From a virus, in the IMG/VR virus record IMGVR_UViG_3300045988_103180: DNA of 64,000 bases; one strand, given 5' to 3'. Under the pieces are notes generated by a model that saw only the letters and a program-made list of their open reading frames with translations, did not search any database and was not told where the DNA came from. The translations under genes and the position numbers were made by a program. The stretch's first letter is position 1; every line of letters starts with the position of its first letter. This document shows positions 4,478 through 59,900 of the stretch, one piece after another.

Positions 4478-4505
4478 TAGGGACTCTTTTGAGTCCCTAT
4501 TTTTT
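4478..4505 (+). terminator. rho-independent terminator
   Basis: TAGGGACTC-TTTT-GAGTCCCTA + T-run. Confidence 0.75.
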
Positions 4506-4506
4506 G

Positions 4507-4536
4507 TTGACTATTGGCTATATATTATGCTATAAT
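4507..4536 (+). promoter_or_regulatory. early-class promoter
   Basis: TTGACT-18-TATAATata. Confidence 0.65.
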
Positions 4537-4563
4537 ATATTTAAGAAATCGAAAGGAGATTCA

Positions 4564-5100
4564 ATGAGCATCTTTGTAGTCAGTGACACTCATTTTTCGC
4601 ATCAGAATATTATCAATTATTGTGAGAAGTCGCGTGCTTTTAATACGGTTGATGACATGAACGAAGACATCATCGAAAGGTGGAATTCCGTTGTATCTCC
4701 TGATGATACTATCTATCATCTTGGTGATTGCTTCATGGGACCGCTTGAGACTGTAGCTAAATATGGTTCTCATCTCAATGGAAAGGTTCATGTGATTCCC
4801 GGCAATCATGATACCAAGAAACGCATTGCTGAAATGGAAAAGCTCGGCTGGATTATTGAAAACAAGGTATCTTGTCTTGATTACAATGATGTCAGTTTCA
4901 TTATGATTCACGAGCGCCCCGAGGAAATGCGTGGAGACAGCGCCAATGTCATTCTATACGGTCATGTTCATGATGCGGCTCCCAAGGGCCTTGTTGATTG
5001 GACATATCATGTAGGTGTTGACACTAATAATCTTACTCCTGTTAATATTCATGACATTTGGCTCGATGTCCAGCAGAAGAAGATTGAGCTTGGAGAGTAA
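4564..5100 (+). CDS. calcineurin-like metallophosphoesterase
   Basis: Motifs SDTHF (DxH), LGDCF (GD), PGNHD (GNHD), YGHVH (GHxH); ORF trimmed to ATG 4564 behind AAAGGAG. Confidence 0.85.
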   Translation: MSIFVVSDTHFSHQNIINYCEKSRAFNTVDDMNEDIIERWNSVVSPDDTIYHLGDCFMGPLETVAKYGSHLNGKVHVIPGNHDTKKRIAEMEKLGWIIENKVSCLDYNDVSFIMIHERPEEMRGDSANVILYGHVHDAAPKGLVDWTYHVGVDTNNLTPVNIHDIWLDVQQKKIELGE

Positions 5101-5804: not shown

Positions 5805-5955
5805 TAAATCTGACCGTGACACATACTTTGACCTGCTTTATGATATGTACGATGCCGACTTGGTTGATGTTGCTTTAGAGACTCTTGGCGAGAATGAGCT
5901 GCTTGATGGCATTCCTGCTATGCTTAAAGACTATTATTTTGACGAAGATTGCTAA
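5794..5955 (+). CDS. small acidic protein (53 aa)
   Basis: ORF 5719..5955 trimmed to ATG 5794; stop abuts the next start codon. Confidence 0.45.
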   Translation: MEISKSDRDTYFDLLYDMYDADLVDVALETLGENELLDGIPAMLKDYYFDEDC

Positions 5956-6855
5956 ATGAAAGTAGCGGTTATGAATTTTAAGACTTTTGAAGGAAATTCT
6001 GGCGATATATGGAAGTATGTCTTTACGAAAGAAGATATGGTCGCCGAAGCGGTTCTATATAAATATAATAGTTACTACGATAGAACTGTAATTTGTTGCA
6101 GCGTTATGAGTGGTTGTCCTGTTGGATGTCTCTTTTGCGGCACTGGTTCTAAATTTGTTAGGAATCTTACTGCTGATGAAATTGTAGATCAGATTGTAAC
6201 CGTCTTAACTAATAAAGGTTTAATTAATGACATTAATGAAAAGTGTAAAAAATTACAGTTTATGTTTATGAGCATGGGTGAGCCTATGTTAAATTGGGTA
6301 GAAGTTGAAAAAGCAATTGTCAATCTTCATAAAAAGTTTAGTAATGCTCAGTTACTACTTTCGACTATTGGCTGTGATAATGATGAAACTTTTGCAAAGA
6401 TGATTGCTCTATCTAAGAAGATAGATAAAATTGGTTTGCAATTTTCTATTCATAAGTCCAATGACGCAGAGCGGAATGTGTTAATTCCATTCAAGAAGAA
6501 AATGAATCTTCAAAAGATTAGGGATGTTGGAACTGTTTGGTGGAAAGAAACCGGTAGGCATCCATTCTTAAACTACTGCATTGATGGAACGAATAATGAA
6601 GATAAGAACTTTAAAGAACTTACAGACCTGTTTTCTCCTGTAATCTTTAATTTTACTTTTAGTGTAGTTTGCGCATCTGATGAAACTATGAAAGATGCTG
6701 CGTTTAGAAACTTAGATGTTATTAAGAAGTTTCAGGATAAGTTCTTAGAAAAGGGTTATAATGTAAGGACATTTGACCCAGCTGGTCAAGATGATATTGG
6801 TGGTGGGTGCGGCCAGCTTTGGTATGTTCAGAAGTGGCTAAAGTCTCACCAATAG
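5956..6855 (+). CDS. radical SAM RNA methyltransferase, RlmN/Cfr family (N-terminally short)
   Basis: CCSVMSGCPVGCLFC (CX3CX2C plus a Cys 7 residues upstream as in RlmN), MSMGEPMLN, LSTIG, C-terminal DDIGGGCGQL as in RlmN ..DIxAACGQL. Confidence 0.85.
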   Translation: MKVAVMNFKTFEGNSGDIWKYVFTKEDMVAEAVLYKYNSYYDRTVICCSVMSGCPVGCLFCGTGSKFVRNLTADEIVDQIVTVLTNKGLINDINEKCKKLQFMFMSMGEPMLNWVEVEKAIVNLHKKFSNAQLLLSTIGCDNDETFAKMIALSKKIDKIGLQFSIHKSNDAERNVLIPFKKKMNLQKIRDVGTVWWKETGRHPFLNYCIDGTNNEDKNFKELTDLFSPVIFNFTFSVVCASDETMKDAAFRNLDVIKKFQDKFLEKGYNVRTFDPAGQDDIGGGCGQLWYVQKWLKSHQ

Positions 6856-6876
6856 TTTAAAAGCAGTTACAGTAAT

Positions 6877-6948
6877 GCGAAATTCGTACAACGGTTAGGA
6901 CATCCTGCTTATAACGGGAAGACGAAAGTTCAACTCTTTCATTTCGTA
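6877..6948 (+). tRNA. tRNA-Ile (UAU)
   Basis: GCGAAAT/ATTTCGT, TCCTG-CTTATAA-CGGGA, GAAAG-TTCAACT-CTTTC. Confidence 0.75.
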
Positions 6949-6963
6949 CCTCTAACTTTTTTC

Positions 6964-6993
6964 TTGACAATTGCATATTGAATATGATATAAT
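6964..6993 (+). promoter_or_regulatory. early-class promoter (drives permuted tRNA-like RNA 2, tRNA array and radical SAM gene)
   Basis: tttttcTTGACA-18-TATAATata. Confidence 0.7.
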
Positions 6994-6998
6994 ATAGT

Positions 6999-7213
6999 TA
7001 TCAAGTCGAGCATAGAGCAGATGTGGGTTCGACTCCCATCCTTGCCCGACAAGGGCGAGGTAGTTTAATTGGTTAAATACGGTTCTTACGTTCGACTAGA
7101 TATATAGAAAATATAGGAAATAGCTTAACCCTATATTTTCAACTTCTAAAGCCTAGCTAGCTTTAGATTAAAAGGTTCGCAACTATCCTTAAAATGGTTG
7201 CCACTAGTGACGG
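6999..7213 (+). ncRNA. second circularly permuted tRNA-like module (6999..7102) plus two long hairpins, leading the tRNA array
   Basis: Same architecture and same GACAA cap as 1906..1995; closing stem TATC-A-AGTCGA / TCGACT-A-GATA; hairpins 7107..7139 and 7146..7168. Confidence 0.6.
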
Positions 7214-7214
7214 T

Positions 7215-7286
7215 GTGTTAGTAGTTTAACTGGCAGAATTGCAAGGTGACGTTCTTGAGATTGGAGTTCGAATCTCCACTAGCGCA
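7215..7286 (+). tRNA. tRNA-like gene with non-canonical anticodon arm (identity undetermined)
   Basis: GTGTTAG/CTAGCGC, T arm TGGAG-TTCGAAT-CTCCA, but anticodon arm CAAG(G)-TGACGT-(T)CTTG gives a 6- or 8-nt loop. Confidence 0.5.
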
Positions 7287-7293
7287 CGAAAAT

Positions 7294-7365
7294 TTCTCTA
7301 TGGTGTAATTGGCAGCACAACGGATTTTGGTTCCGTTAGTTTATGTTCGAGTCATAATAGAGAAG
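7294..7365 (+). tRNA. tRNA-Gln (UUG)
   Basis: TTCTCTA/TAGAGAA (U1-A72), ACGGA-TTTTGGT-TCCGT, TTATG-TTCGAGT-CATAA. Confidence 0.8.
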
Positions 7366-7372
7366 CCAACAT

Positions 7373-7445
7373 GTCCATGTAGCTCAGTAGGTAGAGCAGC
7401 AGACTGAAAATCTGCGTGTCGGTAGTTCAATTCTACCCGTGGACA
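7373..7445 (+). tRNA. tRNA-Phe (GAA)
   Basis: GTCCATG/CGTGGAC, GCAGA-CTGAAAA-TCTGC, GGTAG-TTCAATT-CTACC. Confidence 0.85.
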
Positions 7446-7453
7446 CCTTATAT

Positions 7454-7526
<73 letters not shown>

Positions 7527-7541
7527 CCTTTAGTTTTCTTT

Positions 7542-7615
7542 GGCAGTGTAGCTTAGATGGTTAGAGCGCACGGCTCATACCCGTGAGGTCATTAGTTCAA
7601 ATCTAATCACTGTCA
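7542..7615 (+). tRNA. tRNA-Met or Ile2 (CAU), elongator type
   Basis: GGCAGTG/CACTGTC (G1-C72), CACGG-CTCATAC-CCGTG, ATTAG-TTCAAAT-CTAAT. Confidence 0.8.
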
Positions 7616-7623
7616 CCTTATAT

Positions 7624-7708
7624 GCGGCTATGGCGGAAGTGGCAGACGCGCTAGCTTTAGGTACTAGTGGGGAAACCCATGCAGGTTCGATTCCTGCTAG
7701 CCGCACCA
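7624..7708 (+). tRNA. tRNA-Leu (UAG), type II, CCA encoded
   Basis: GCGGCTA/TAGCCGC, anticodon loop TTTAGGT, variable arm TGGG-GAAA-CCCA, GCAGG-TTCGATT-CCTGC, ACCA. Confidence 0.75.
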
Positions 7709-7723
7709 AGTATTTTGTTTTGA

Positions 7724-8500
7724 ATGGATGTAATTATGTGTAATTATATTGACCACATTGATGCTGTTATTACTCATTATTGTAATTTTAACTGTCCTTT
7801 TTGTATTGATAAATTTAAAACAAATATTAAGAATCCTCAGAATGAATTTAATAAAGAATATTTTAATGATTTTTTAAATTCTTTAAATAAAAAAGAAAGT
7901 TCTGGCGATATTAAGATTAATTCTAATCGTGAGGTTCTATTTTTGGGTGGTGAACCAACAACTGTTGGTTTTAATTTACTGAAGGATTATGCTAATATTG
8001 TTAGTCGTAATGGTTTTCATCCAATTATATCAACTAATGGTGTTGATAAAAACACAATTAAAAAGATTCTTCCATATTTCGATTGGGTACAGGTAACGGC
8101 TCATAGCAAGAAAGAGATTGATGAATGGCGTACGTATAATACGTATGGGAATATCAATCTTAAAATTGCTGGAGATAGTCATTTTACGTATGATAAGTTA
8201 AATTATTTAATTGATAATTGTAAAGATTTTACTCGTCGTAGCGTATCCATGTATTTTACAAAAGATTTTGTTGAATTATGTAAAGATAAAGAAATTTGGA
8301 ATCTTTTAGATTCTTTAAATAATTGGAAAACCAATGGAAGTTACGAGTATGCTTTTTATAAAGATGTTCGTATTAAGAAATGTATACATGGATTAACAAA
8401 TATTATTGATGAACCCACTGTCCCAAAGATTTATGATAAGAAATATAATAAAACATGGGATAATGAAGAATTAGATGATTATTTAAATCTATTTATATAG
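7724..8500 (+). CDS. radical SAM domain protein, substrate unknown
   Basis: HYCNFNCPFC (CX3CX2C) and LFLGGEPT motifs; very AT-rich; directly follows the tRNA array; start 7724 or 7736. Confidence 0.75.
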   Translation: MDVIMCNYIDHIDAVITHYCNFNCPFCIDKFKTNIKNPQNEFNKEYFNDFLNSLNKKESSGDIKINSNREVLFLGGEPTTVGFNLLKDYANIVSRNGFHPIISTNGVDKNTIKKILPYFDWVQVTAHSKKEIDEWRTYNTYGNINLKIAGDSHFTYDKLNYLIDNCKDFTRRSVSMYFTKDFVELCKDKEIWNLLDSLNNWKTNGSYEYAFYKDVRIKKCIHGLTNIIDEPTVPKIYDKKYNKTWDNEELDDYLNLFI

Positions 8501-8502
8501 TT

Positions 8503-9250
8503 TAAGACAGTATTAAATACAGAATAATGATAACTCGCAGCGCTTCTTTATAGCGAAACTTGACAGAGAGAGGTTTAATACTGTTTATAATGGGGGCATG
8601 GATATAGTCATGATGTAGCTAGATTCTCATGGATGATGACAGCTTAACCAATTCTGGTTCGAGTCCAGGCGTGTCTTAGCTTAGACGGAAAATAAGCAGC
8701 CATGTGTTTATGATTATGTTATTTTGCAAAAGACATGTAGTGTAATTGGCAACACGCCCTACTTTCGGAGTAGATAACCAGCGGGGAGCTGGGTTTGCCT
8801 GCTAAGCAAAACGTGCTTATTATAAGCATTCGGGTCGGAACCGAATTACTCCGCCATATAATACCTGCCCCTATTGGCAGTGGTTTTTAAGATTTTCCCG
8901 AAAAAAATCTTTTGCGGTAGAATAGGCAACGCCGCACAGCTATTCGAGAGGATAGCGAGCCTTCTCGCTAGGAGATAAGCGAGTGCTTTCACGGAGTAAT
9001 TGGTGAGCTGAAACACCGTAAAAACAGACCCTCTGGATGCGCCGTGAATACGCATCCTGCTTTGGCTAATCAACTGGTCCAGCGACTAGGCCCGCCTAGA
9101 AAGCGGTGCGTTCCCAAGAGGGAATGGAGGGCAGCACTTCGGTTAGCCGCCATAAGGAAGCAGAACCGGACCAGTGTTCGGACTCGCCTCGAAAGCGATG
9201 TGTCCCGCGAGGGATGGGTAGCGTCAACTCCTGCTTCTGCCATATATTAC
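8503..9250 (+). ncRNA. large GC-rich structured non-coding region (unclassified)
   Basis: About 750 nt with no credible CDS between radical-SAM stop and terminator 9252..9289. Many GC helices, GNRA-type loops, duplicated two-hairpin module. Contains tRNA-like pieces. Confidence 0.55.
8767..8856 (+). tRNA. tRNA-Ser (GCU)-like element embedded in a larger structured RNA, CCA encoded
   Basis: GGAGTAG/TTACTCC+G+CCA, TTTGC-CTGCTAA-GCAAA, 6-7 bp variable arm; atypical D arm (CCAGC-GGGGA-GCTGG) and T-loop GTCGGAA. Confidence 0.45.
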
Positions 9251-9251
9251 G

Positions 9252-9289
9252 TAGGGTAACTTCTTTTATAGAAGTTACCCTATTTTTTT
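9252..9289 (+). terminator. rho-independent terminator closing the tRNA/radical-SAM/large-RNA unit
   Basis: TAGGGTAACTTC-TTTTATA-GAAGTTACCCTA + T7. Confidence 0.8.
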
Positions 9290-9290
9290 A

Positions 9291-9320
9291 TTGACATACA
9301 GCAATTCAAAATGATATAAT
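9291..9320 (+). promoter_or_regulatory. early-class promoter
   Basis: TTGACA-18-TATAATata plus leader. Confidence 0.7.
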
Positions 9321-9354
9321 ATATTTAAAGAAAAGCCAAGAGAAAGGTTATCTC

Positions 9355-9708
9355 ATGAGCAACACCGATGATATGCTTTATGAACAGTGTAAGTGTATTT
9401 CAGAAGAACTTGATGAACTTGTAGACAAATATAATAATTCTGATGACTGCGATGAATTCATAGAATATTTTGACGATAACTATGGAATTGACTATATATG
9501 GCGTATGGGTGTAGGCCTTATCGGTGTGCGCGTTCTTGTTGCTTTTGGTGGCCCCAATATCTATATTGATACTTTTGATGGCGTTGTCCGTGGCTACTGG
9601 GGCAGCACGCAGTCCTATCCTTTGCATTATAATGTAGTTGATACTCTCAATGACTATTTTGAGGATTGCGCGGCAGAAAATATTTATTTTGATAGTCATC
9701 GTAATTAA
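9355..9708 (+). CDS. hypothetical acidic protein
   Basis: 117-aa ORF behind promoter 9291..9320 and conserved leader. Confidence 0.7.
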   Translation: MSNTDDMLYEQCKCISEELDELVDKYNNSDDCDEFIEYFDDNYGIDYIWRMGVGLIGVRVLVAFGGPNIYIDTFDGVVRGYWGSTQSYPLHYNVVDTLNDYFEDCAAENIYFDSHRN

Positions 9709-9712
9709 TATC

Positions 9713-9741
9713 TTGATTATTGGCTTTATATCTAGTATAAT
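9713..9741 (+). promoter_or_regulatory. early-class promoter
   Basis: TTGATT-17-TATAATata plus leader. Confidence 0.65.
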
Positions 9742-9775
9742 ATATTTAAAGAAAGCTAAGAGAAAGAAATATAAG

Positions 9776-10150
9776 ATGCCTACTTTCATTTGTACTGTGT
9801 GTCAAAATAGAATTAAAGAACATGGCAGCAATGTCGATTGTGGATATTATAACGATACTCGTCAGATGATTGAAGACACGACAAAGTTATATGATAAAAG
9901 TTTTCTTTGTCCGCATTTTTGTCACGTTAGGTATCACAATATAGGTGTATGTAAATCAAAGAAAAAATACGCTAACAGATATGATGCGTTATGTGCGGCT
10001 AAGATGATATTCGTCAATAGCTCAAAAACCTTGCGTCCATATAAGTGCAAGATGTGCAAGTTTTGGCATTTAACGCATCAGTATAATAGCAATTATAATC
10101 CAGAAAAAGAGTACGATAAAGCTAGAAAAGCAAACCGCTTGTATGATTAG
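9776..10150 (+). CDS. Cys/His-rich zinc-finger-like protein
   Basis: ORF trimmed to ATG 9776 behind leader agctaagagaaag; CxxC pairs and YKCKMCKFWHLTH. Confidence 0.65.
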   Translation: MPTFICTVCQNRIKEHGSNVDCGYYNDTRQMIEDTTKLYDKSFLCPHFCHVRYHNIGVCKSKKKYANRYDALCAAKMIFVNSSKTLRPYKCKMCKFWHLTHQYNSNYNPEKEYDKARKANRLYD

Positions 10151-10159
10151 GAGATAAAT

Positions 10160-10639
10160 ATGGCTAATCTTTATATTCTTGCAGGTATCCCAGGCTGCGG
10201 CAAGTCGTTTTGGGCGCATGAGCATAGCGCTGAACTTGATGCCAAGATTGTTTCGCGTGATTATATCCGCTTTGAGTATATGGCAAATGACCCTGATTTT
10301 CTTCCTTCTATGGATTACTTTAAGTATGAGAGTGACGTTATTAAGGATTTCTATAGTCAGATTAACGACAATCTTTGCAATGATATTAATGTTATTGCAG
10401 ATGCTACTCATATCTCTTGGAAGTCGCTTCGCAAGACCGTTGAGAATTGCGGCAAGAACGCCGATAAGATTATTCTTGTATACTTCAATCGTGGCCTTGA
10501 CATTGCTTTACCGCAGAATGCTAAGCGCGGAGATGTTGAACATGTACCCGAGGATGTTATCAAGCGCATGTGGGCTGGTCGTTATATGCCTGCTCGCGCT
10601 AAAGCCAAGGGTCTTGTAGGCGAGTATATGATTGTATAG
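10160..10639 (+). CDS. P-loop polynucleotide 5'-kinase-like protein (T4 Pnk kinase-domain type)
   Basis: GIPGCGKSFWA Walker A, SRDYIR, ADATH, QNAKRGDVEHVPEDVIKRMW parallel the T4 Pnk kinase domain (recalled from memory). Confidence 0.75.
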   Translation: MANLYILAGIPGCGKSFWAHEHSAELDAKIVSRDYIRFEYMANDPDFLPSMDYFKYESDVIKDFYSQINDNLCNDINVIADATHISWKSLRKTVENCGKNADKIILVYFNRGLDIALPQNAKRGDVEHVPEDVIKRMWAGRYMPARAKAKGLVGEYMIV

Positions 10640-10645
10640 GTGAAT

Positions 10646-10861
10646 ATGAAAAAAGATACCGTATATGTTTTTAAGCAGATTTTAGATGCTATCCAAGAGC
10701 AAGAAATATCTAGTTCATCTATTGGTTTTGAATATTGCGTATATGAAATGCCGCAAAAAGAATGCGAAGATATATGTATAATCTTGCAGAAACTTGGGTA
10801 TAATGCAATTATAGGACATAGACTCGGAAGTGAGTCTACAATTACAGTGATGAAAGAGTAG
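10646..10861 (+). CDS. hypothetical protein
   Basis: ORF trimmed to ATG 10646 behind AGGTG. Confidence 0.55.
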   Translation: MKKDTVYVFKQILDAIQEQEISSSSIGFEYCVYEMPQKECEDICIILQKLGYNAIIGHRLGSESTITVMKE

Positions 10862-10863
10862 AT

Positions 10864-11175
10864 ATGTGTACATTTGATTATCCAGAACATTATAATTATC
10901 TTACAAAAGACCAGCAGGAGAGCGTTCTAAGCTGGTTCAATACCACGAAAGACATTGAGCGCAGTATTATCAGCACTTCTGTAAAGAGCAAGTCTGAACG
11001 TGAGCTAAAGGCTTTCTCTGAGAACCGTGAACGTTATGAGACGCAGCTTCGCGGAGCACAGTCAATTTTGCGTTCAATGGGCGTCTTTGTTGAATACAAT
11101 TGGCCGGGCCATGAGCATGAGTATTTTCTAGCTACTGCGGCAGATGCCGAGCGTTATCGCAAGGAGCATGAATAA
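10864..11175 (+). CDS. hypothetical protein
   Basis: 103-aa ORF, tightly packed in operon. Confidence 0.65.
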   Translation: MCTFDYPEHYNYLTKDQQESVLSWFNTTKDIERSIISTSVKSKSERELKAFSENRERYETQLRGAQSILRSMGVFVEYNWPGHEHEYFLATAADAERYRKEHE

Positions 11176-11369
11176 TGGCCGCATGTATTCATGGAGACGT
11201 ATGCCGTGCATGGATGCGACAGACAGGCAGTATTGCACCATTGCGTGCATCTTGTCCTAATTGTCCTTGGTTTGAGCCTAAGTATCGCCCTTGTGATACT
11301 TGGTTTAATAGAGATTGTATGCGCGATTGGCAAGGTCGCCCAGTCGTAACTTGTCGCGCGATGATTTAG
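11175..11369 (+). CDS. small Cys-rich protein
   Basis: 64-aa ORF, start overlaps upstream stop (ATAATG). Confidence 0.55.
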   Translation: MAACIHGDVCRAWMRQTGSIAPLRASCPNCPWFEPKYRPCDTWFNRDCMRDWQGRPVVTCRAMI

Positions 11370-11380
11370 AAAGGTATTTT

Positions 11381-11656
11381 ATGATTGCTAATGATGCCCG
11401 CACAATGGTATATGATACTCTTTATAAGTATGATTATGACATTCCCCAAGAGTTAGAAGATAAAATCAATGAAGAGATTATTGCTGCGGCAGAGCGTATG
11501 AAGTTTCGTTGTAAGGTCGAGCTTTTCCCCTGTGATGATGAACGAGCGCAGGATGTAGAATTTCGCCGCAGTATTGTTGTGTATTATCATAGTTTAGGTT
11601 ATAATTGTTACGTGACACCTTGTAACGGTCATTTTGTTTTAGTAGTGGAGTGGTAA
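11381..11656 (+). CDS. hypothetical protein
   Basis: ORF 11315..11656 trimmed to ATG 11381 behind GAAAGG. Confidence 0.6.
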   Translation: MIANDARTMVYDTLYKYDYDIPQELEDKINEEIIAAAERMKFRCKVELFPCDDERAQDVEFRRSIVVYYHSLGYNCYVTPCNGHFVLVVEW

Positions 11657-11658
11657 AT

Positions 11659-11949
11659 ATGTTTTTTGTTATGATGGACTGGTTTGAAGATGGTGTTGAT
11701 TCCTATCGTGGAATGAAGGTAATTCCTATTCTAGATAGTGATGCAGATATTGCACTTTTCCTCGCACATGATATTGCCTACAATATGGACGCTTGGGAAG
11801 AGTATGAGAAGCCGCACGATGTATATGTATTCCATAGTGATAACGGTATCTTCGATGAAGAAGATAACTTTGTATGTTCTTACTTAGATTGCGATAAATT
11901 CACCAAATGCGGCGAACGCAAGTTTAATGGACGAATTCCTAAGTACTAA
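11659..11949 (+). CDS. hypothetical protein
   Basis: ORF trimmed to ATG 11659; terminator 11953..11979 follows. Confidence 0.6.
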   Translation: MFFVMMDWFEDGVDSYRGMKVIPILDSDADIALFLAHDIAYNMDAWEEYEKPHDVYVFHSDNGIFDEEDNFVCSYLDCDKFTKCGERKFNGRIPKY

Positions 11950-11952
11950 TGG

Positions 11953-11979
11953 TAGGGCTAGAAATAGCCCTATTTTTTT
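11953..11979 (+). terminator. rho-independent terminator
   Basis: TAGGGCTA-GAAA-TAGCCCTA + T7. Confidence 0.75.
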
Positions 11980-11980
11980 C

Positions 11981-12009
11981 TTGTAGTAAGCCATATAAAA
12001 TGATATAAT
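11981..12009 (+). promoter_or_regulatory. early-class promoter
   Basis: TTGTAG-17-TATAATata. Confidence 0.6.
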
Positions 12010-53936: not shown

Positions 53937-56900
53937 GTGATTACCATTAGTAAATATTCAAATACTATTGAGTATAATCTACGAACTACATTAGACCGCT
54001 CTGGTTTGACTCAATTGCAGACTGAGCTTAATAAAGTTTCTGTTCAATTGAAAGAAATGCAATCTCAGAGGTTGCTTGACCCCTCTCAAGTAGATTCGTC
54101 AATCAGCACAATCAACAAATTTAAAAGTGCATTGAATTCTAGCTTCAATTCAAAAATTGGTATGCTTGATATGTCAAAATTTGTTGGACAATTGCAAGAA
54201 AGTAAAGTATCTTTAAATAGCTTGCAGAATTCTTTTGCTTTAACTGGTAATACTGGCAAGGCTGCATTTGCTGGTGTATTAGGACAGCTTGGTAAAATTG
54301 ATACCGGCATTAAAAGTACAAGCTCTATGGTTGACAAAATCTTTAACACAATGGGTAATACTGTGCGCTGGGGCATTATGTCAAGCGCTTTTAATGGTGT
54401 AACTGATTCCATTCGTCAATCAGTTGAATATGCAAAAGACCTTGATGATTCGTTGACACAGATTATGCTTGTTACTGATTATTCGCGTGATTCGATGGTT
54501 CAGTATGCAAAACAAGCTAATGAAGCTGCTAAGGCTCTTGGTTCTACGACTGTTGCTATGACAAACGCTTCTCTGGTCTATAGTCAGCAAGGCTTTGACT
54601 TGAATAAGTCTCAACAACTTGCTGAAATGTCAACTAAATTAGCAAATGCTTCTCAGCAAGATACTTCTACAACGTCAGACCAAATCACAGCATATATGAA
54701 TGCTTATGGTCTTGATGATAATATTGATAAACTTAATGCGGCACTAGATTCTTGGGCCAATGTAGCAAATATTTCTGCTGCTGACGTTGGAGAACTTGCA
54801 GAAGCATCACAGAAAGCTGCATCAGCAGCAGCTACTCTTGGAGTTTCTACAGACCAACTTAACGCCCAAATTGCAACTATTGAATCTGTTACCCGAGAAG
54901 CCCCAGAACAAATTGGTAACGGTTTAAAGACACTTTACGCACGCTTTTCAGACCTATCAATGGGTAAAACCCTAGATGATGGAGTAGACTTAGGAAAAGT
55001 AACTTCTACGCTAGATAAAATTGGTGTACAGGTTTTAGACGGCGATGGAAAAATGCGTGGCGTTGGCAATATCATGGAAGACTTAATGAAAGTTTGGGAT
55101 TCTATTGATTCTACACAAAAAGCTGCCGTAGGCCAAACACTTGCTGGTAAATTCCAACTTACACGTTTTGAAGCATTGATGAACCGTGCAGATTTATATA
55201 AGCAATATAAAGCTGGTTCTGAAAATGCTAATGGTACACTTGATGTAATGAATGAGAAGTATGTTGATTCATTACAGGGAAAATTAAATAAATTACAAAC
55301 TACCTTTGAAGGTATTATAAATAGCCTTGGTGATTCTTCTGATTTTTATGGATTCATTGATGGATTATCTACTGCATTAGATTTAATGCAGAAATTGGTT
55401 GATTCTATTGGCGGTGGTTCTGCTGCGCTAACTTTACTTGGTGCTACTGCTACTAAAGTATTTAGTACAACCATGTCTCGTGGTATTGCTTCTATGATAC
55501 AAAACCATCAGGTTAATAAAACTCGTAAAGTGAATGCGCAGACGAGACAGCAAAAATTGCAGGAAATGGGCTATAATCATATTGAAGAAAATGAATCTAC
55601 AAAGCCCATTATGGATTTTGTCAATACCGGTATTAAATATCAACCAGACATGAATGAAGGTCAGGCTAAAGAATATAATAGTATTCTTGACAGTTTAGTT
55701 ACATCTGTGCAAAAAGTAACTACAGAAGAAGATAAGATGCGTGAAGCTGTTGAAGCTACTAACATTGCTATGAGAGCAGCCTTAGAGACTTCTTTTGATT
55801 ATCTAGAACTTACGAGAGACGAGAATGGCGTTTTACAAATTAAGCCAACCGATGTATATGACATAGCGATTAGAAATAGTCAAGATAAATTAGGCAAGCT
55901 GGGCACTAATGAGTTGAAGCAAATTACTGGAGAACAGGCACTTAAAAGTGGTGCTTATAGTGCTAATCTAACTAGAAACCTAAGTACAATAAAAGCTGCA
56001 AAAGCAGAAGACGCAACAGCTGGTACTAAGACACGGGCAACTGCTGCTATGCAGACAGCGTTTGACAGGGGTAAAAGTCTAGTAAAAGAGTTTATGGGTA
56101 CTGATAACATCTGGGACGATCGGTTCAATGAATATGAAGAAAAAATTGAAGACCTCAGAAACCCAATTCAGCAGTTAATTGTTAGTCTAAGAGAGCTTTC
56201 AAAAGTTATTAATGAAGATAATTATAATTTTGATGCAGCGATTGAGACATTGGGAAAAGTACAGAACGCAGCAAACGGAGCAGCCGAAGCAGCTGACGTT
56301 GCTACAAAACAGCAAAATGCAACTCGTAAAGAAGACAGAGTGCCGTTATCTAATGTTGGAGAAGCAGCACAGCAAAATAATAAAATGCAAGCTGCGCAAG
56401 AAGAGCTGAAAACTGCGCAAGGCCGTGGTGAAGGCTTCAACGAAGGTATGGATTTACAAAATGATATTCAGCAAATTGTTCAAGCAACTTCTGCTATTGG
56501 TCAACTTGGTTTTGCTTGGCAATCTTTCCAGAATTTAGGCTCTATCTGGGCGAATGCAGATTTAACAGACGGTGAAAAATTAGAATCAACCTTTTTAAAT
56601 CTAACTATGGTTTTACCGAATATTATATCTGGCATTACTATGCTTTCTGATGCGTTAAAAGCCCTTGATGGTTCAAAAGCAATGTCTTCTTTGCTAGATA
56701 TTTTTAATGGTATTAGTTCTTCTATTACTAATATGACAAGTATTCAAAATACCTCACATGTTTTTGAATATGTTAATGATGAATTAACATATTTGGATGA
56801 TGGAGCGCAAATTGCATCTGAGGGTATTGAAGGTTTGTCAGCAGCATTTGCGAGCGGTTCTTCTGCTGGAACTGGTTTTGGTAGTGTAATTACCAGTCTT

Positions 56901-59900
56901 CTTAGTTCAATTAATCCAGTTACCCTTGCGCTTACAGTAGCAGCTGTTGCTATTGGTGGATTAACATTTGCCATGAAGAAACATGCAGAAGAAGAGCAAG
57001 AACGCATAGACACCATTAGGGATAATGCAGAGCAAGCTAGAAAAGATTCAGAATCTATTAAGGATTTAACATCTTCTTTTGATGATTTATATTCACAATA
57101 TCAAGATGGAGCTGATAATTCTGATGCCCTTTCTTCTGCTGCTAAAAATATAAATGATGTTATTGATGACCAGTCTTTAAAGGTTGCAGCAGCTTCTGGC
57201 AATTGGAAAGAATATGCTAACAGTTTAAGAAAAGCACAGGTCGCACAACTTAATCAACAAAATAAAGATTTATGGGCTGAACGAAATGAAGACGCTTCTG
57301 CCGCCAATGATAGCTTTAATCGTATTGATTTTAAAGAGATAAAAACAAAAGGTACTTATAAAGATATTACTTCTGGCAATGCCGCTGCAACAACTGGCAT
57401 TGGTAAAATGATTAAAGCATATGGAAAAGATTTTTCTGATTTATATTTTAATAATTCGACTGGTACTGTTTCAGTAGATAAAAAGCTGAATGATGAAGAA
57501 GCCTATAAAGAGCTAGAAGCATTTTTAACTACTTATAATCAGCATCAAGAAGAATTTTTATCAAAACTTTCTGCTAATGATAAAGACCGTATAGAAAAAT
57601 TCGTGGCATCTGCTAAAGAGCAAGTTAATAATGAAAGTGTCCAGTCTGTTCGCACGAATGACCAAACTCTTGGAGCTAATTATGCTGAAATATACAAAGA
57701 TGATAAATCTTTTAAATATCAGGAAGGTCAGACGATTGAACAGTATACCAATACTGTTAAGCAAGCTCTTAAAGAACAAGGAATAAATGCTTCATCAACT
57801 TTACTTGACGCTTTCGTACAAGGCATGATGCAAGGTGATAGTGATTCAAGCAAACAACTTGCTGCTGAGCAAGTTAAAGAAACTTCTCAAAATACTTTTG
57901 AAGACAATATTAAAAATAATTGGGAATCAAGTAAATTATCATTTAATACAGATCAATTAGCTAAGAATCCTCAATCAATGGATATGACCGAGGGGCTAGA
58001 TTTTTCAAAATATAGTAAAGAAATTTCATCTACAATAGCTCAAGCGGCTATAAACCAAGTTAATGAATCTTCTTTAAGTGACGAAGATAAGCAAAAGCTA
58101 TTATCTAGTATAGACTGGTCAAACAGTATTTCAGATATTTTAGCAACTATTACAGAAGCGGTTGATACTGGAGATGTAGAAACAGCTTTGAAAAATAATA
58201 CAGGCAAAAAACATAGCAATGGAGAGCTTGCTGCGGGATATGAGGATAATACTGATTTAACCAAACATCTTGAAGATGAATATGACGTTTCTAATGATGT
58301 AATAGATACTTATAAGCAACAGATGGAAGCTACAACTGATTTAGGAAAAACTAAACAGGAATTAGCTGATGAAGTCAAAAAAACAACAGACGAATTTGGT
58401 TCTGAATCAAAAGAAGCTAAGCAAGCACAGCGTAATTTAGATAATTATAATGACTCTGCTGATGATACAGCTGCAAAAACAATACAAACCCAAAAAGGCC
58501 TTGATAAATTATCCGAATCTTTTGAAGATAACTATAAAATTTTAAAGAGTGGAGATAAAACTACTTTATCATATGTTCAAGCATTGACCGAAACAAAAGA
58601 TGCTTTGGCAGATGTTTTAAATACTTCTTCTGAAAATATCTCTAATGATTTTGTAGAATCGCATTTAAACGAAATCAACCAATTAGCAAATGGAGATTTA
58701 TCTGCTCTCGATTCATTAAGAGAAGCAGCCGCACAAGATTATGTTGTTAAAATCTCTCAAGAAGGAAATCTGACCCCAGAAAATTTGGAATGGCTTAAAA
58801 ATCAAATCACTCAAATTTCTGGTATGAGCATTGATGTTGGTTCTTCATTAAATGACCAAGGTTTTATTGATGGATTAAACGATATGCTTGATGCTGGTAC
58901 AATGACTGTTGACCAAGTAAATTCTTTATTTGGTATGATGGGATATGACCCAACTATTACTTGGAAAACTGAACGCAAACCAGTGTTTGATTTAAGTAAA
59001 TATTCCATTAAGCTACCAGACCCACTTGGTGAAATTAATCTACCAAATATTAAAATTATGGGTGACGTATCTGTTCCGCAAATTAGTGGTGGCTCTAATA
59101 CAAAAGGTAAAAATGCCCCAACAAAAGTTGGTGGCGGTAGTGGCTCATATTCTGGGCACGGTTTATCAGCTCCATCAGGAGGCGGCGGCTCTAAAGGTGG
59201 AGGCGGCGGAGGCGGCGGCGGAAGTGGCTCCGGTTCATCTTACACTGCAAAAGAAAAAAAAGAAATTGACAACGAAGTTGATTTGTATGAGCGCGTCAAT
59301 ACAATTCTTGAAAAAGTAAATAGCCAATATGAACAGCTAAACAAAGAGCGAGATAGACTTACTGGTAAAAAATTAGCTGAAAATATTGCTAAAGAGACAG
59401 CTTTATTGGAACGTCAAATTGCCGTTCAAAAAGAAAAGCAAAAGATACAGGATAAAGAAGCCGCAGACCTACGTAACGAACTTTCATCGTCTTTTGGCGT
59501 ACAATTTGATTCAGAAGGATATATTGCCAATTATGCAGACGTATATAATCAATTAGTAAATAAAGTTAATGAACTTGGAGCAAAATATCCAACACTTACT
59601 TCTGATGAACAGGAAAAAGCGCTAGACAAAGAATATGATGCCGCAGAAAAGGCATTAGATAAATTTAACACTAAATATAAGCGATATGATGAATTATTTA
59701 GTGGAGATATGGAAGAAACCAAGAGCACTATTGAAGACCTTAAAGATTCAATCGAAGATTTACGTATCGAAGTTTTAAAGACTCAAGTTGAAGCTCTCGA
59801 TAATCTTAAAGACATTCAAGAAAGTCTCGTTGATTTCGACCGTGCATTTAATCGTGGTATCAAACTAACGCCTTATCAAGAAGCAGCCGATAATGTCGCC

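What the first reader, a model, noticed from the sequence alone, without database searches (positions are those of the whole stretch)
8503..9250. About 750 nt of GC-rich, ORF-free, heavily structured RNA between a radical-SAM gene and a strong terminator, with embedded tRNA-like parts
The segment is much more GC-rich (by eye) than its AT-rich surroundings. The three ORFs the track finds in it (8846..9073 minus, 9044..9259 and 9106..9294 plus) lack SDs and look like GC artefacts. Visible structure:
- long-range 11-bp pairing ACAGTATTAAA (8507-8517) / TTTAATACTGT (8574-8584);
- a T arm plus acceptor-3' strand (TCTGG-TTCGAGT-CCAGG-CGTGTCT, 8653-8676) lying upstream of its complementary acceptor-5' strand and D arm (AGACATG-TA-GTGT-AATTGGCA-ACAC, 8731-8755), which may be a third permuted module with a ~55-nt cap insertion;
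- a CCA-ending tRNA-Ser(GCU)-like fold (8767-8856);
- hairpins GGATGCG/CGCATCC, GCGAG-CCTT-CTCGC and CTAGG-CCCG-CCTAG;
- a duplicated two-hairpin module (9092-9127 and 9184-9217: CGC-CTnGAAA-GCG then TCCC-NNNN-GGGA, one with a GCGA tetraloop);
- a closing helix GGAAGCAG (9156-9163) / CTGCTTCT (9231-9238).

Large ornate phage-borne RNAs next to tRNA genes are known as classes (GOLLD, ROOL). I cannot confirm membership from memory.
Basis: partly seen in the sequence, partly recalled or inferred. Interest (0 to 1): 0.75.

Follow-up and report, generated by a model that had tools for sequence, protein, structure and literature searches.

The report
Phage cluster of irregular serine tRNAs
The 750-base GC-rich stretch is not one giant ornate RNA but the tail of a gut-phage tRNA operon, holding three oddly shaped serine tRNAs that standard tools miss, a circularly permuted tRNA look-alike and a ~200-base structured RNA of unknown function.

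Summary
Window 8503-9250 is GC-enriched, non-coding and densely structured.

The reading as one GOLLD/ROOL-like giant RNA does not hold. About 50 related contigs, mostly ~140-kb human-gut phages, show a mosaic of modules that come and go independently at the 3' end of a tRNA operon:
- A covarying 5' hairpin (8503-8590).
- A 171-nt circularly permuted tRNA look-alike (8591-8761). Its order is V hairpin, T arm, closed acceptor arm, D arm, as in bacterial YrlA Y RNAs.
- An irregular 7/5 tRNA-Ser(GCU) (8767-8856).
- A ~200-nt multi-helix RNA ending in a terminator-like hairpin (8865-9063).
- Two tandem tRNASec-shaped '8/4' tRNA-Ser genes, AGA (9064-9152) and CGA (9156-9242), each with G73 and an encoded CCA.
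- The strong terminator (9251-9283).

All three tRNAs show strong compensatory covariation. Their T loops are non-canonical, so ARAGORN (default settings) and Rfam miss them.

8/4 tRNASer in phages was described by Mukai et al. (2017). The T-loop variant, the permuted mimic and the 200-nt RNA match no Rfam family. Homing-endonuclease-like ORFs at this locus in relatives plausibly explain the mosaicism.

The parts
7724..8500 (+). Context: a radical-SAM ORF embedded in the tRNA array, with tRNAs at 7215-7708 directly upstream.
   Evidence: ORF. Pfam Radical_SAM/Fer4_12. A PHROG radical-SAM family. tRNAs.
8503..8590 (+). Module P: a long irregular hairpin. The outer helix is 8507-8517/8574-8584, with an inner CTC/GAG helix and an apical hairpin GCGCT...AGCG. 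It is present in about half of the relatives.
   Evidence: Compensatory changes in the outer helix and in the inner CUC/GAG to UUC/GAA helix are seen directly in the sequences. Presence and absence are tabulated. The TTGACA inside it cannot serve the tRNA, because the -10-like TTTATA ends 1-2 nt before tRNA position 1 in relatives.
8591..8761 (+). Module I: a circularly permuted class-II tRNA look-alike. The closing 'anticodon-stem' helix is TGGGG 8591-8595 / CCCTA 8757-8761.
   Evidence: It is absent from the closest relatives. It is present at 80-96% identity in L029/L082 and 11 human-gut contigs. In the RNAalifold consensus 99.6% of cells pair. Six pairs change on both sides (0 of 500 shuffles reach this). 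Slid controls give 28-54% paired.
8597..8644 (+). Module I, variable region. Hairpin a is 8597-8612 (CATG/CATG, covarying with CGTG/CACG). Hairpin b has stem 8617-8620/8641-8644 and a conserved 20-nt loop containing GATGATGA.
   Evidence: pairs A-U to G-C, and U-A to C-G to U-G.
8653..8669 (+). Module I, T arm: TCTGG-TTCGAGT-CCAGG, with a canonical T loop.
   Evidence: Covaries (CTGG/CCAG, CGGG/CCCG, CTAG/CTAG).
8670..8737 (+). Module I, closed 'acceptor' arm. CGTGTCT 8670-8676 pairs with AGACATG 8731-8737. It is capped by a structured ~54-nt extension with apical hairpin ATAAGCA...TGTTTAT.
   Evidence: Helix in the minimum-free-energy fold and in the alifold consensus. The cap helices covary (C-G to U-A at two pairs).
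8740..8755 (+). Module I, D arm: GTGT-AATTGGCA-ACAC. It is preceded by T8 A9 (8738-8739) and followed by G26 (8756).
   Evidence: Read directly from the sequence. Changes are one-sided and consistent (U-A / U-G).
8767..8856 (+). Irregular 7/5 tRNA-Ser(GCU). It has a 7-bp acceptor, a 5-bp D stem with a 5-nt loop GGGGA, a 6-bp anticodon stem with one bulge, anticodon GCT at 8801-8803, a long variable arm, T loop GTCGGAA, G73 at 8853 and CCA at 8854-8856.
   Evidence: Covariation. ARAGORN calls it only at -ps80 and Rfam does not call it. Some relatives carry a canonical tRNA-Ser(GCU) in its place.
8865..8936 (+). Module Y: three hairpins. H0 is 8865-8880. Hp1 is 8889-8911, with loop CCCGAAA resembling a Ser(CGA) anticodon loop but with C33. 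Hp2 is 8913-8936, with the 12-nt loop AGAATAGGCAAC nearly invariant (one T-to-A change beside it, read in some variants).
   Evidence: It is found in every related locus whose held stretch covers that part of the cluster. H0 and Hp1 covary (U-A to C-G in 11 versus 12 sequences; three pairs in Hp1).
8937..9063 (+). Module X': Hp3 8939-8956 (GAGA loop), Hp4 8957-8988, invariant TTCACGG 8988-8994, Hp5 9002-9017, and hairpin GGATGCG 9035-9041 / CGCATCC 9051-9057 with invariant loop CCGTGAATA, followed by TGCTTT.
   Evidence: It is absent in L023 and in the L017-type loci, so it is a separate module. Hp4 and the last hairpin covary. In about 14 gut contigs the last hairpin is followed by T5-T8 and then an ORF, with no tRNAs. 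With Y it can form a five-way junction closed by GTGG 8880-8883 / TCAC 8989-8992.
9064..9152 (+). (8/4) tRNA-Ser(AGA). It has acceptor 9064-9071/9141-9148, AA, a 6-bp D stem with loop CAGC, anticodon loop CTAGAAA (AGA at 9098-9100), a variable arm, a 4-bp T stem with loop GGCAGCA, G73 at 9149 and CCA at 9150-9152.
   Evidence: Covariation. Model R1 scores 98.5 bits. ARAGORN -mt mode calls it Ser(aga). Rfam tRNA and tRNA-Sec models do not hit.
9156..9242 (+). (8/4) tRNA-Ser(CGA). It has acceptor GGAAGCAG 9156-9163 / CTGCTTCT 9231-9238, AA, a 6-bp D stem with loop CAGT, anticodon loop CTCGAAA (CGA at 9190-9192), a variable arm with a GCGA loop, a 4-bp T stem with loop AGCGTCA, G73 at 9239 and CCA at 9240-9242.
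   Evidence: R1 scores 88.5 bits. Relatives switch the anticodon only to TGA (L020, L022, L031).
9251..9290 (+). Intrinsic terminator closing the operon: a 14-bp stem, a 5-nt loop and T7. A consensus promoter for the next gene follows at 9291-9320.
   Evidence: Conserved in relatives.

Best explanation
**What it is.** Window 8503-9250 is the distal part of a polycistronic tRNA operon of a ~140-kb human-gut phage. Its portal protein is most similar to portals of phages that infect Firmicutes. It is not one RNA.

**Transcription and processing (inferred).** The precursor is read from upstream, through the tRNA array at 7215-7708 and the radical-SAM gene, to the terminator at 9251-9283. Host RNase P and 3' trimming enzymes cut it into separate RNAs.

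**The three tRNAs.** Three products are serine tRNAs of irregular shape. One is a 7/5 tRNA-Ser(GCU) with a 5-bp D stem. The other two are tRNASec-shaped '8/4' tRNAs with anticodons AGA and CGA.
- Shown: each has a long variable arm, G73 and an encoded CCA.
- Shown: all three cloverleaves are supported by strong covariation.
- Inferred: host SerRS, which recognises the variable arm and G73 rather than the anticodon, charges them with serine.
- Inferred: together they read AGY, UCU (the commonest Ser codon in this window) and UCG.

**The other modules.** Between the tRNAs lie conserved structured RNAs of unknown role.
- Module I is a circularly permuted tRNA mimic with canonical T and D loops and a closed acceptor arm.
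- Module Y+X' is a ~200-nt multi-helix RNA whose last hairpin is terminator-like in many relatives.
- Module P is a 5' hairpin.

**Shuffling.** The modules differ between phages. An inferred cause is homing endonucleases, whose ORFs sit at this locus in relatives.
For: **Modularity**
- Module I is missing in the closest relatives.
- X' is missing in L023.
- X' plus tRNA A are replaced by another unit in L017-type loci.
- L012 carries an A/B hybrid.
- An ORF with a GIY-YIG-like N-terminal motif (read by eye, not scanned) replaces tRNA B in L029.
- An ORF interrupts a tRNA-Ser in L016.

**8/4 cloverleaf**
- On 10 diverse copies 95.9% of cells pair and 20 of 30 pairs change on both sides. Slid controls give about 40%.
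- The window holds exactly two hits to the derived model, at 98.5 and 88.5 bits.
- Distant copies in other phage tRNA arrays (L022, L024, L031) and in a Deltaproteobacteria MAG (L036) keep the architecture.
- The L036 copies also hit Rfam tRNA-Sec at 38 and 35 bits. That is how Mukai et al. found this class.

**tRNA-Ser(GCU)**
- 98.6% of cells pair and 16 of 29 pairs are compensatory.
- It is replaced by a canonical tRNA-Ser(GCU) in several relatives.

**Signs of a decoding function**
- Anticodon-loop variation is confined to position 34 and always gives a Ser anticodon (AGA, CGA, TGA; GCT).
- The loop keeps U33 and A37.
- The D-loop G and T-loop C that correspond to G19:C56 are invariant.
- No other Ser tRNA is called in the window.
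- Ser codon usage in the window is TCT 39%, AGT 20%, TCA 17%, AGC 13%.

**Literature**
- (8/4) tRNASer occurs in bacteriophages and Clostridia, and polycistrons of irregular 7/5 and 8/4 tRNAs exist (PMC5389517).
- T4 precedent: a tRNA operon that also carries a GIY-YIG homing endonuclease and two stable RNAs of unknown function (PMC2330249).
Against: - No expression, processing or aminoacylation data exist.
- The T loops (GGCAGCA, AGCGTCA, GTCGGAA) lack T54, Psi55 and A58.
- Neither Rfam tRNA nor tRNA-Sec scores the window copies, even at E<=10 on a 193-nt search. Function in translation is therefore not assured.
- A34 in tRNA-Ser is, as far as I recall, unusual for bacteria.
- The promoter was not located.
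- The roles of I, Y+X' and P are unknown.
- Most relatives come from a few samples and are closely related. Covariation in I and Y+X' therefore rests on few events.
Confidence: 0.75

Rival explanations
1. The irregular Ser 'tRNAs' and module I are not used in translation. They would be tRNA decoys or mimics that soak up host tRNA-targeting defence nucleases or tRNA-binding enzymes, or they would be regulatory RNAs. Some allo-tRNAs have been suggested to act this way.
For: - The T loops are non-canonical and standard tRNA models give no hit.
- Module I has no anticodon loop and no free CCA, yet it keeps a canonical T arm and D arm.
- Hp1 of Y resembles a Ser(CGA) anticodon loop but with C33.
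- A PNK-like kinase and a phosphoesterase, which suggest RNA repair, lie nearby.
- Mukai et al. found allo-tRNAs that are inactive in translation.
Against: - Anticodons vary only among Ser anticodons.
- G73, CCA, U33, A37 and the G19:C56 equivalents are kept.
- A canonical tRNA-Ser(GCU) substitutes for the irregular one in relatives.
- The set matches the window's Ser codon usage.
Confidence: 0.13
2. Modules I, Y, X' and P are evolutionary debris. They would be fragments and rearranged halves of tRNA genes left by homing-endonuclease-driven recombination, with no function of their own.
For: - The locus is a recombination hot spot with homing-endonuclease-like ORFs and truncated tRNAs (L016, L029).
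- A clearly rearranged unit derived from tRNA A exists in L017-type loci.
- L029 has an extra base in the acceptor-like helix of I.
Against: - I is conserved at 80-96% identity in 13 contigs, and every helix substitution preserves structure.
- Y is found in every related locus whose held stretch covers that part of the cluster and has covarying stems and near-invariant loops.
- X' keeps invariant single-stranded motifs while its linkers vary.
Confidence: 0.07
3. The whole 750 nt is one large ornate RNA of the GOLLD/ROOL kind that happens to embed tRNA-like domains.
For: - As far as I recall, these classes occur in phages near tRNA genes.
- The segment folds better than shuffles (z = -3.9).
Against: - No GOLLD or ROOL hit at gathering score or at E<=10.
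- No helix supported by comparison links the modules.
- The modules are independently lost, replaced and permuted in relatives.
Confidence: 0.02
4. The segment encodes small proteins (ORFs 8846..9073 minus, 9044..9259 plus, 9106..9294 plus).
For: The ORFs exist.
Against: - Substitutions are spread evenly over codon positions.
- Relatives carry frameshifts, stop codons and whole-module losses.
- The same changes are compensatory in RNA helices.
Confidence: 0.01

Closest known systems
(8/4) tRNASer / allo-tRNA (Mukai et al., Nucleic Acids Res 2017, PMC5389517)
   Same: - 8-bp acceptor and 4-bp T stem.
- tRNASec-like 6-bp D stem with a tetraloop.
- 6-bp anticodon stem and a long variable arm.
- G73 or U73, and serine anticodons.
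- Occurrence in phage tRNA clusters, and in polycistrons together with irregular 7/5 tRNAs.
   Different: - The window copies have T loops of the form NGCRNCA instead of TTCRANY.
- They score below detection with the Rfam tRNA-Sec model, which is the model that revealed the class.
- One copy has A34 (anticodon AGA).
- They sit in tandem, 3 nt apart.
tRNASec (Rfam RF01852)
   Same: An acceptor/T branch longer than 7/5 in its acceptor part, a 6-bp D stem with a 4-nt D loop, a long variable arm, G73, and SerRS as the charging enzyme (established knowledge).
   Different: The anticodons are Ser sense anticodons, not UCA. The configuration is 8/4, not the bacterial 8/5. There is no Rfam hit. No Sec machinery was looked for.
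YrlA, the bacterial Y RNA with a tRNA-like module (Chen et al., RNA 2014, PMC4201824)
   Same: - Module I has the same permuted order: V hairpin, T arm, closed acceptor stem-loop, D arm.
- It has canonical T-loop and D-loop nucleotides.
- It has a 7-bp acceptor-like helix, the feature that made M. smegmatis YrlA a substrate for RNase P and CCA addition.
- YrlA-like RNAs also occur in phages.
   Different: - No Ro60-binding stem or GNCGAAN0-1G motif.
- No TROVE/Ro60 gene among the large ORFs of the window that were scanned.
- The acceptor arm carries a ~54-nt structured cap.
- The element sits inside a tRNA operon, immediately 5' of tRNA-Ser.
Phage T4 tRNA gene region (species I and II RNAs, segB; PMC2330249)
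   Same: One precursor transcript carries tRNAs and stable non-tRNA RNAs of unknown function. It ends at a terminator after the last small RNA. It also carries a GIY-YIG homing endonuclease gene that drives mosaicism between related phages.
   Different: There is no sequence similarity (blastn against GenBank phages finds nothing). The tRNAs here are irregular Ser tRNAs. Homology of the small RNAs was not tested.
GOLLD and ROOL large RNAs
   Same: Phage-borne, next to tRNA genes, GC-rich and highly structured (from memory).
   Different: No covariance-model match. The region is not a single conserved unit.
Two-piece (circularly permuted) tmRNA
   Same: The T arm and acceptor-3' strand are encoded upstream of the acceptor-5' strand.
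   Different: No G3:U70 pair (it is A3-U70). No CCA after the acceptor strand. No tag reading frame. ARAGORN tmRNA search and the Rfam scans are negative.

Membership tests
(8/4) tRNASer / allo-tRNA | A 12-bp acceptor branch split as an 8-bp acceptor stem and a 4-bp T stem. | tested here: met
   The acceptor helix has 8 pairs, 96% paired, with 6 pairs changing on both sides. The T stem has 4 pairs, 100% paired, all 4 covarying.
(8/4) tRNASer / allo-tRNA | A tRNASec-like long D stem with a tetraloop. | tested here: met
   A 6-bp D stem in which all 6 pairs change on both sides. The loops are CAGC and CAGT.
(8/4) tRNASer / allo-tRNA | A long variable arm and a lengthened anticodon stem. | tested here: met
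   A variable arm of 5-6 bp and an anticodon stem of 6 bp with one bulged base.
(8/4) tRNASer / allo-tRNA | Ser identity elements: discriminator G73 or U73. For the tRNASer subgroup, a serine anticodon. | tested here: met
   G9149 and G9239. U73 in L003-type copies of tRNA B. Anticodons AGA and CGA, with TGA in relatives.
(8/4) tRNASer / allo-tRNA | Resemblance to the Rfam tRNA-Sec covariance model, which is the route by which the class was discovered. | tested here: inconclusive
   The window copies give no hit at E<=10. Relatives linked through model R1 (L036, at 71.5 and 45.6 bits) score 35.5 and 38.3 bits with tRNA-Sec.
(8/4) tRNASer / allo-tRNA | Canonical tRNA elbow nucleotides (T54-Psi55-C56...A58, G18 G19). 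| tested here: inconclusive
   The G19 and C56 equivalents are invariant in all 10 copies. Positions 54, 55 and 58 are not canonical in the window copies. L024 and L036 have TTCGATT- and TTCGATC-type loops.
(8/4) tRNASer / allo-tRNA | Serylation by SerRS and decoding on the ribosome. | not testable with these tools
   Needs aminoacylation and reporter assays such as those in PMC5389517.
GOLLD / ROOL | A match to the family covariance model. | tested here: not met
   No hit at gathering score on the whole window. No hit at E<=10 on 8350-9400.
GOLLD / ROOL | One contiguous conserved RNA of 500-800 nt. | tested here: not met
   The modules are independently present or absent in about 50 related loci.
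YrlA (bacterial Y RNA) | A tRNA-like module in the order V, T, acceptor stem-loop, D, with tRNA-like T and D loops. | tested here: met
   Module I, 8591-8761. The family is described.
YrlA (bacterial Y RNA) | A Ro60-binding stem with the GNCGAAN0-1G motif. | tested here: not met
   Reading the window copy by eye shows no such motif or extended stem. The closing helix is only 5 bp.
YrlA (bacterial Y RNA) | Encoded next to a Ro60 (TROVE) gene. | tested here: not met
   Among ORFs of 350 aa or more, five had no Pfam match and four others, scanned with PHROGs only, matched unrelated families. ORF 53937-62480 was not scanned. The rest of the ~140-kb genome is not in the window.
Two-piece tmRNA | G3:U70, a CCA end on the acceptor piece, and a tag reading frame; detection by ARAGORN or Rfam. 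| tested here: not met
   The pair is A3-U70. The acceptor strand is followed by TAGC. ARAGORN tmRNA search is negative. Rfam is negative.
Intrinsic terminator | A GC-containing hairpin followed directly by a U run. | tested here: met
   9251-9283 plus T7. For the X' hairpin (9035-9057) the U run is TGCTTT in the window and T5-T8 in about 14 relatives. The scan does not call it because its loop is 9 nt.

The most novel reading that the evidence does not exclude
Two previously undescribed RNA classes may ride in this phage tRNA operon.

1. **Module I** would be a Ro-independent, circularly permuted tRNA mimic. Like M. smegmatis YrlA, it would be cut by RNase P at 8730/8731 and perhaps CCA-tailed. 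It could recruit or titrate enzymes that recognise the tRNA elbow, or host tRNA-targeting defences, for the benefit of the irregular tRNAs that follow.
2. **Module Y+X'** would be a riboswitch-like attenuator. It would consist of a five-way junction closed by GTGG/TCAC. The 3' strand (TTCACGG) can instead pair with CCGTGAA to prevent the terminator hairpin. This would gate read-through into the 8/4 tRNA-Ser genes, or into an SPFH-like gene in other phages.

A linked idea concerns the non-canonical T loops. They may have been selected because they remove the GGTTCRANTCC site recognised by SegB-type GIY-YIG homing endonucleases.
Probability: 0.2. Interest if true: 0.8.

Novelty: new variant of a known kind. 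Interest (0 to 1): 0.55.

Why it matters
- **Annotation gap.** Standard annotation gives this phage no serine tRNA. In fact it carries three (GCU, AGA, CGA) in shapes that tRNA finders and Rfam miss, so tRNA complements of gut phages are probably under-counted. The covariance model built here (R1) also recovered 8/4 copies in other phage tRNA arrays and in one bacterial MAG among the loci fetched.
- **Limits of tRNA shape.** tRNASec-shaped tRNAs with altered T loops test how far tRNA architecture can drift while still serving SerRS, EF-Tu and the ribosome. Such scaffolds have been used for genetic-code engineering.
- **New study material.** The permuted tRNA mimic and the 200-nt terminator-linked RNA are conserved structured RNAs that match no Rfam family. 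They sit in a locus where natural module swaps already provide a deletion series.
- **Link to selfish elements.** The association with homing endonucleases offers a testable connection between selfish DNA and tRNA sequence evolution.

Tried and rejected
**Searches that found nothing**
- Rfam at gathering score on the whole window, and at E<=10 on 8350-9400, 9058-9250 and 8585-8770, gave only chance-level hits (snoRNA, McaS, Glutamine-II on the wrong strand).
- blastn against GenBank phages with the region found no match. With 5900-12000 it found only tRNA and radical-SAM fragments.
- ARAGORN at default settings found nothing in the region, and its tmRNA mode found nothing.

**Promoter in module P: rejected.** The -10-like hexamer ends 1-2 nt before tRNA position 1 in relatives.

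**Alternative long-range pairings: rejected**
- GGCGGTGGC/GCCGCCGCC works in L017-type loci but fails in the window, where hairpin H0 covaries instead.
- The acceptor reading GGGCATG/CGTGTCT for 8594-8677 (ARAGORN at -ps80) is rejected. The A-to-G and T-to-C changes in relatives are compensatory within hairpin a, not within that helix.

**Other ideas rejected**
- The mini-ORF GTG CTT TCA CGG AGT AAT TGG TGA behind the AGGAG loop of Hp4 is rejected. Its variable positions change amino acids freely and coincide with an unpaired linker.
- Un-permuting module I in silico and running ARAGORN gave no confident tRNA, probably because of the 57-nt variable region.
- The T-box, RNase P and lysine-riboswitch ideas for Y+X' have no Rfam support.
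- Reading the neighbouring kinase as PSTK/KTI12 is rejected in favour of polynucleotide kinase.
- Phass-1, the nearest named phage by portal protein (41% identity), shows no strong 8/4 tRNA hit in the third of its genome that was fetched.

**Noisy scan.** The genome-contig scan returned mostly chance matches. Only L036 was a clear member of the family.
Full report
**1. Observation check**

The segment is real and stands out from its surroundings. GC in 200-nt windows rises to 0.39-0.56 across 8500-9300, against 0.22-0.33 in the flanking genes. The window as a whole is 39% GC.

The + strand folds better than shuffles (z = -3.9). The - strand does so less well (z = -2.9).

- Against relatives, substitutions are spread evenly over codon positions (for example 8/9/9).
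- Some relatives have frameshifts or stop codons, and others lack the segment entirely.

A 14-bp terminator with a T7 run closes the segment at 9251-9283. A perfect TTGACA-N18-TATAAT promoter for the next gene follows at 9291-9320.

**2. It matches no described RNA family**

Rfam 15 finds only the 11 ordinary tRNAs elsewhere in the window at gathering score. Permissive searches at E<=10 on 8350-9400, 9058-9250 and 8585-8770 give only chance-level hits. There is no match to GOLLD, ROOL, RNase P, tmRNA, group I or II introns, T-box, tRNA or tRNA-Sec. ARAGORN at default settings finds nothing there. GenBank phages hold nothing similar by blastn.

**3. Relatives show a mosaic, not one RNA**

Three kinds of search gave about 50 related loci:
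- protein-anchored searches of viral contigs;
- pattern scans of viral contigs;
- one metagenome pattern scan.

Most are ~130-147-kb contigs from human-gut assemblies. The portal protein is most similar to those of Firmicute-infecting phages and of the gut phage Phass-1.

Alignments, BLAST maps and a module table show that 8503-9250 falls into modules that come and go independently:
- Module I (8591-8761) is absent from the closest relatives. It is present in 13 other contigs.
- X' (8937-9063) is absent from L023, which keeps both downstream tRNAs.
- X' plus tRNA A are replaced by a ~60-nt rearranged unit in L017-type loci.
- L012 has a single A/B hybrid.
- About 14 gut contigs lack both 8/4 tRNAs. 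They have an SPFH-like ORF directly after X'.
- Module P and module I are almost mutually exclusive.
- In L029 an ORF with a GIY-YIG-like N-terminal motif (read by eye, not scanned) replaces tRNA B. In L016 an ORF interrupts a canonical tRNA-Ser after its D arm.

This pattern parallels the T4 tRNA region. There the GIY-YIG endonuclease SegB sits among tRNA genes and drives preferential inheritance of the region (PMC2330249).

**4. The 3' 180 nt are two tRNASec-shaped serine tRNAs**

RNAalifold on the first relatives revealed two tandem domains of identical architecture, each ending in GCCA. Each domain has:
- an 8-bp acceptor stem, followed by AA;
- a 6-bp D stem with a 4-nt loop;
- a 6-bp anticodon stem with one bulge, and a 7-nt loop CTNGAAA;
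- a long variable arm;
- a 4-bp T stem with a 7-nt loop;
- G73 and CCA.

The two genes are tRNA A at 9064-9152 (anticodon AGA) and tRNA B at 9156-9242 (anticodon CGA).

I aligned ten diverse copies: A and B of several phages, plus distant copies in other phage tRNA arrays (L022, L024, L031). On this alignment 95.9% of cells pair and 20 of 30 pairs change on both sides. When the 3' partners are slid by 1-3 columns, only 37-46% pair.

A covariance model built from this alignment (R1) finds exactly these two sites in the 64-kb window, at 98.5 and 88.5 bits. It also finds two copies in a Deltaproteobacteria MAG. Those two also score 38 and 35 bits with Rfam tRNA-Sec.

This is the '(8/4) tRNASer' or allo-tRNA architecture of Mukai et al. 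They found such tRNAs as tRNASec-like false positives. They reported them in bacteriophages, proteobacteria and rumen Clostridia, and in polycistrons with irregular 7/5 tRNAs (PMC5389517).

The window copies differ in their T loops, which are GGCAGCA and AGCGTCA (family motif NGCRNCA). That explains why tRNA models miss them. The D-loop G and T-loop C equivalent to G19:C56 are nevertheless invariant. L024 and L036 have ordinary TTCGAT-type loops.

**5. The 'CCA-ending tRNA-Ser-like fold' is a third, irregular 7/5 tRNA-Ser(GCU) (8767-8856)**

Its features are:
- a 7-bp acceptor stem;
- a 5-bp D stem with a 5-nt loop;
- the same bulged 6-bp anticodon stem as in the 8/4 tRNAs;
- a long variable arm;
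- a 5-bp T stem with loop GTCGGAA;
- G73 and CCA.

Ten variants give 98.6% of cells paired and 16 of 29 pairs compensatory. Slid controls give 31-40%. ARAGORN reports it only at relaxed thresholds.

Several relatives carry an ordinary tRNA-Ser(GCU) at the same place. This argues that the irregular version does the same job.

Across all copies the anticodon loop varies only at position 34 and always gives a serine anticodon. No other Ser tRNA is called in the window. Ser codon usage in the window is TCT 39%, AGT 20%, TCA 17% and AGC 13%. This usage fits a set made of AGA, GCU and CGA.

**6. The 'permuted module' is real and conserved (module I, 8591-8761)**

In the 11 distinct variants that were aligned, the consensus structure is as follows:
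- a closing helix, TGGGG 8591-8595 / CCCTA 8757-8761;
- two hairpins, a (8597-8612) and b (stem 8617-8620/8641-8644, with a conserved 20-nt loop);
- a canonical T arm (8653-8669);
- a 7-9-bp helix between CGTGTCT (8670-8676) and AGACATG (8731-8737), capped by a structured ~54-nt arm;
- T8 A9, a canonical D arm (8740-8755) and G26.

In this consensus 99.6% of cells pair. Six pairs carry compensatory changes (0 of 500 shuffles reach this). These six are in hairpins a and b, the T stem and the cap.

Read as a tRNA, this is a class-II tRNA opened at the anticodon loop and closed at the acceptor end. The order V, T, acceptor stem-loop, D is exactly that of the tRNA-like module of bacterial YrlA Y RNAs. 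Of those, the M. smegmatis RNA, with its 7-bp acceptor stem, is cut by RNase P and CCA-tailed (PMC4201824).

Several points separate module I from YrlA and from tmRNA:
- It lacks the Ro60-binding motif.
- No TROVE gene was found among the large ORFs scanned in the window.
- It is not a two-piece tmRNA. The third pair is A3-U70, there is no CCA and there is no tag frame.

Module I always lies directly 5' of the tRNA-Ser(GCU) gene, whichever type that gene is.

**7. Module Y+X' (8865-9063)**

Y consists of hairpins H0, Hp1 and Hp2. It is found in every related locus whose held stretch covers that part of the cluster. X' consists of Hp3, Hp4, Hp5 and a final hairpin.

On 24 variants, H0, Hp1, Hp3, Hp4 and the final hairpin GGATGCG/CGCATCC carry compensatory changes. 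Several loops and the motifs TTCACGG and CCGTGAATA are invariant, and the Hp2 loop AGAATAGGCAAC is nearly so. Linkers vary.

In about 14 gut contigs the final hairpin is followed by T5-T8 and then by an ORF with no room for a promoter. It therefore behaves as a leaky or regulated terminator. In the window the U run is reduced to TGCTTT and the 8/4 tRNAs follow.

Three alternative pairings are possible:
- GTGG 8880-8883 with TCAC 8989-8992, which closes a five-way junction. This is the minimum-free-energy fold, with z = -2.0.
- TTCACGG with CCGTGAA.
- The terminator hairpin.

The last two are iso-energetic in folding: both minimum-free-energy folds are -20.7 kcal/mol. This is the layout of an attenuator or riboswitch. 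However, the switching helices never vary, so comparison neither supports nor refutes it.

The closest precedent for a non-tRNA stable RNA at the end of a phage tRNA transcript is T4 species I and II RNA.

**8. Module P (8503-8590)**

An inner CTC/GAG helix also covaries. The TTGACA inside P cannot be the promoter of the tRNA, because of the spacing. P is most simply a structured element of the read-through transcript from the radical-SAM gene. Its role is unknown.

**9. Mechanism proposed**

- Shown: the modular anatomy, the three cloverleaves with Ser identity elements, the conserved structures of I, Y+X' and P, and the terminator.
- Inferred: one precursor transcript is processed by host RNase P and 3' trimming enzymes.
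- Inferred: host SerRS, which recognises the variable arm and G73 rather than the anticodon (established knowledge), charges the three tRNAs with serine.
- Inferred: the three tRNAs decode AGY, UCU and UCG during infection.
- Speculative: module I acts as a tRNA-elbow mimic.
- Speculative: Y+X' acts as an attenuator.
- Speculative: the altered T loops escape SegB-like endonucleases that recognise GGTTCRANTCC.

**10. Verdict**

The interpretation as a single GOLLD/ROOL-type RNA is not supported.

The tRNA part is a new variant of a known kind (8/4 and irregular 7/5 tRNASer). The permuted mimic resembles the YrlA tRNA module but fails the Ro-related membership features. Y+X' has no known family.

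Interest is moderate. The region exposes a blind spot of tRNA annotation in gut phages. It also offers two conserved, unclassified structured RNAs, with natural presence/absence variants to work from.

Noticed in passing
window 7215-7287: ARAGORN calls a 'tRNA-???' with a four-base anticodon (gacg). Rfam tRNA scores it at only 35 bits. It may be a tRNA with an 8-nt anticodon loop.
   Followed up: no
window 5956-6855 and 7724-8500: Two radical-SAM ORFs lie inside the tRNA array (Pfam Radical_SAM). The first has distant DNA matches to radical-SAM genes of Vibrio phages.
   Followed up: partly
window 10160-10636 and 4489-5100: A polynucleotide-kinase-like P-loop protein (PHROG 505; Pfam AAA_33, weaker KTI12) and a calcineurin-like phosphoesterase flank the tRNA region. 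This suggests an RNA-repair context.
   Followed up: partly
L029 (= L082), oriented region positions ~900-1545; L016, oriented region positions ~125-535: Homing-endonuclease-like ORFs sit at the locus. One, with a GIY-YIG-like N-terminal motif (read by eye), replaces tRNA B. Another interrupts a canonical tRNA-Ser(GCU) just after its D arm.
   Followed up: partly
L069 2084-3106, and the same arrangement in about 14 gut contigs: A 340-aa ORF follows the X' hairpin and U run directly, in place of the two 8/4 tRNAs. By eye it looks SPFH/band-7-like; it was not scanned.
   Followed up: partly
L011 5993-6078; also L018 and L023: An 86-nt class-II tRNA sits at the site where the window has module I. 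ARAGORN calls it Val(tac) with anticodon loop TGTACAC. It looks like a Tyr-type body with G33.
   Followed up: no
L022 6247-6332; L024 4471-4555 and 2747-2823: Other phage tRNA arrays hold further tRNASec-like genes. The one in L022, a 211-kb viral contig, scores 52 bits with Rfam tRNA-Sec, above the gathering score of 47.
   Followed up: no
L031 4327-4596: A group I intron match at 43.7 bits (E = 3.6e-8), just below the gathering score of 50, in a phage contig that also carries an 8/4 tRNA-Ser(UGA).
   Followed up: no
window 9251-9340, and other intergenic sites in relatives: The terminator-plus-promoter cassette recurs at 75-81% identity at several other places in related contigs (BLAST hits of query 870-948). 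It appears to be a repeated intergenic module.
   Followed up: no
L086 (Phage Phass-1, OQ749652.1): The nearest named phage by portal protein (41% identity) is classified in the 'Caudoviricetes code 15 clade' and carries a suppressor tRNA-Sup-CTA. ARAGORN called no suppressor tRNA in the window.
   Followed up: partly
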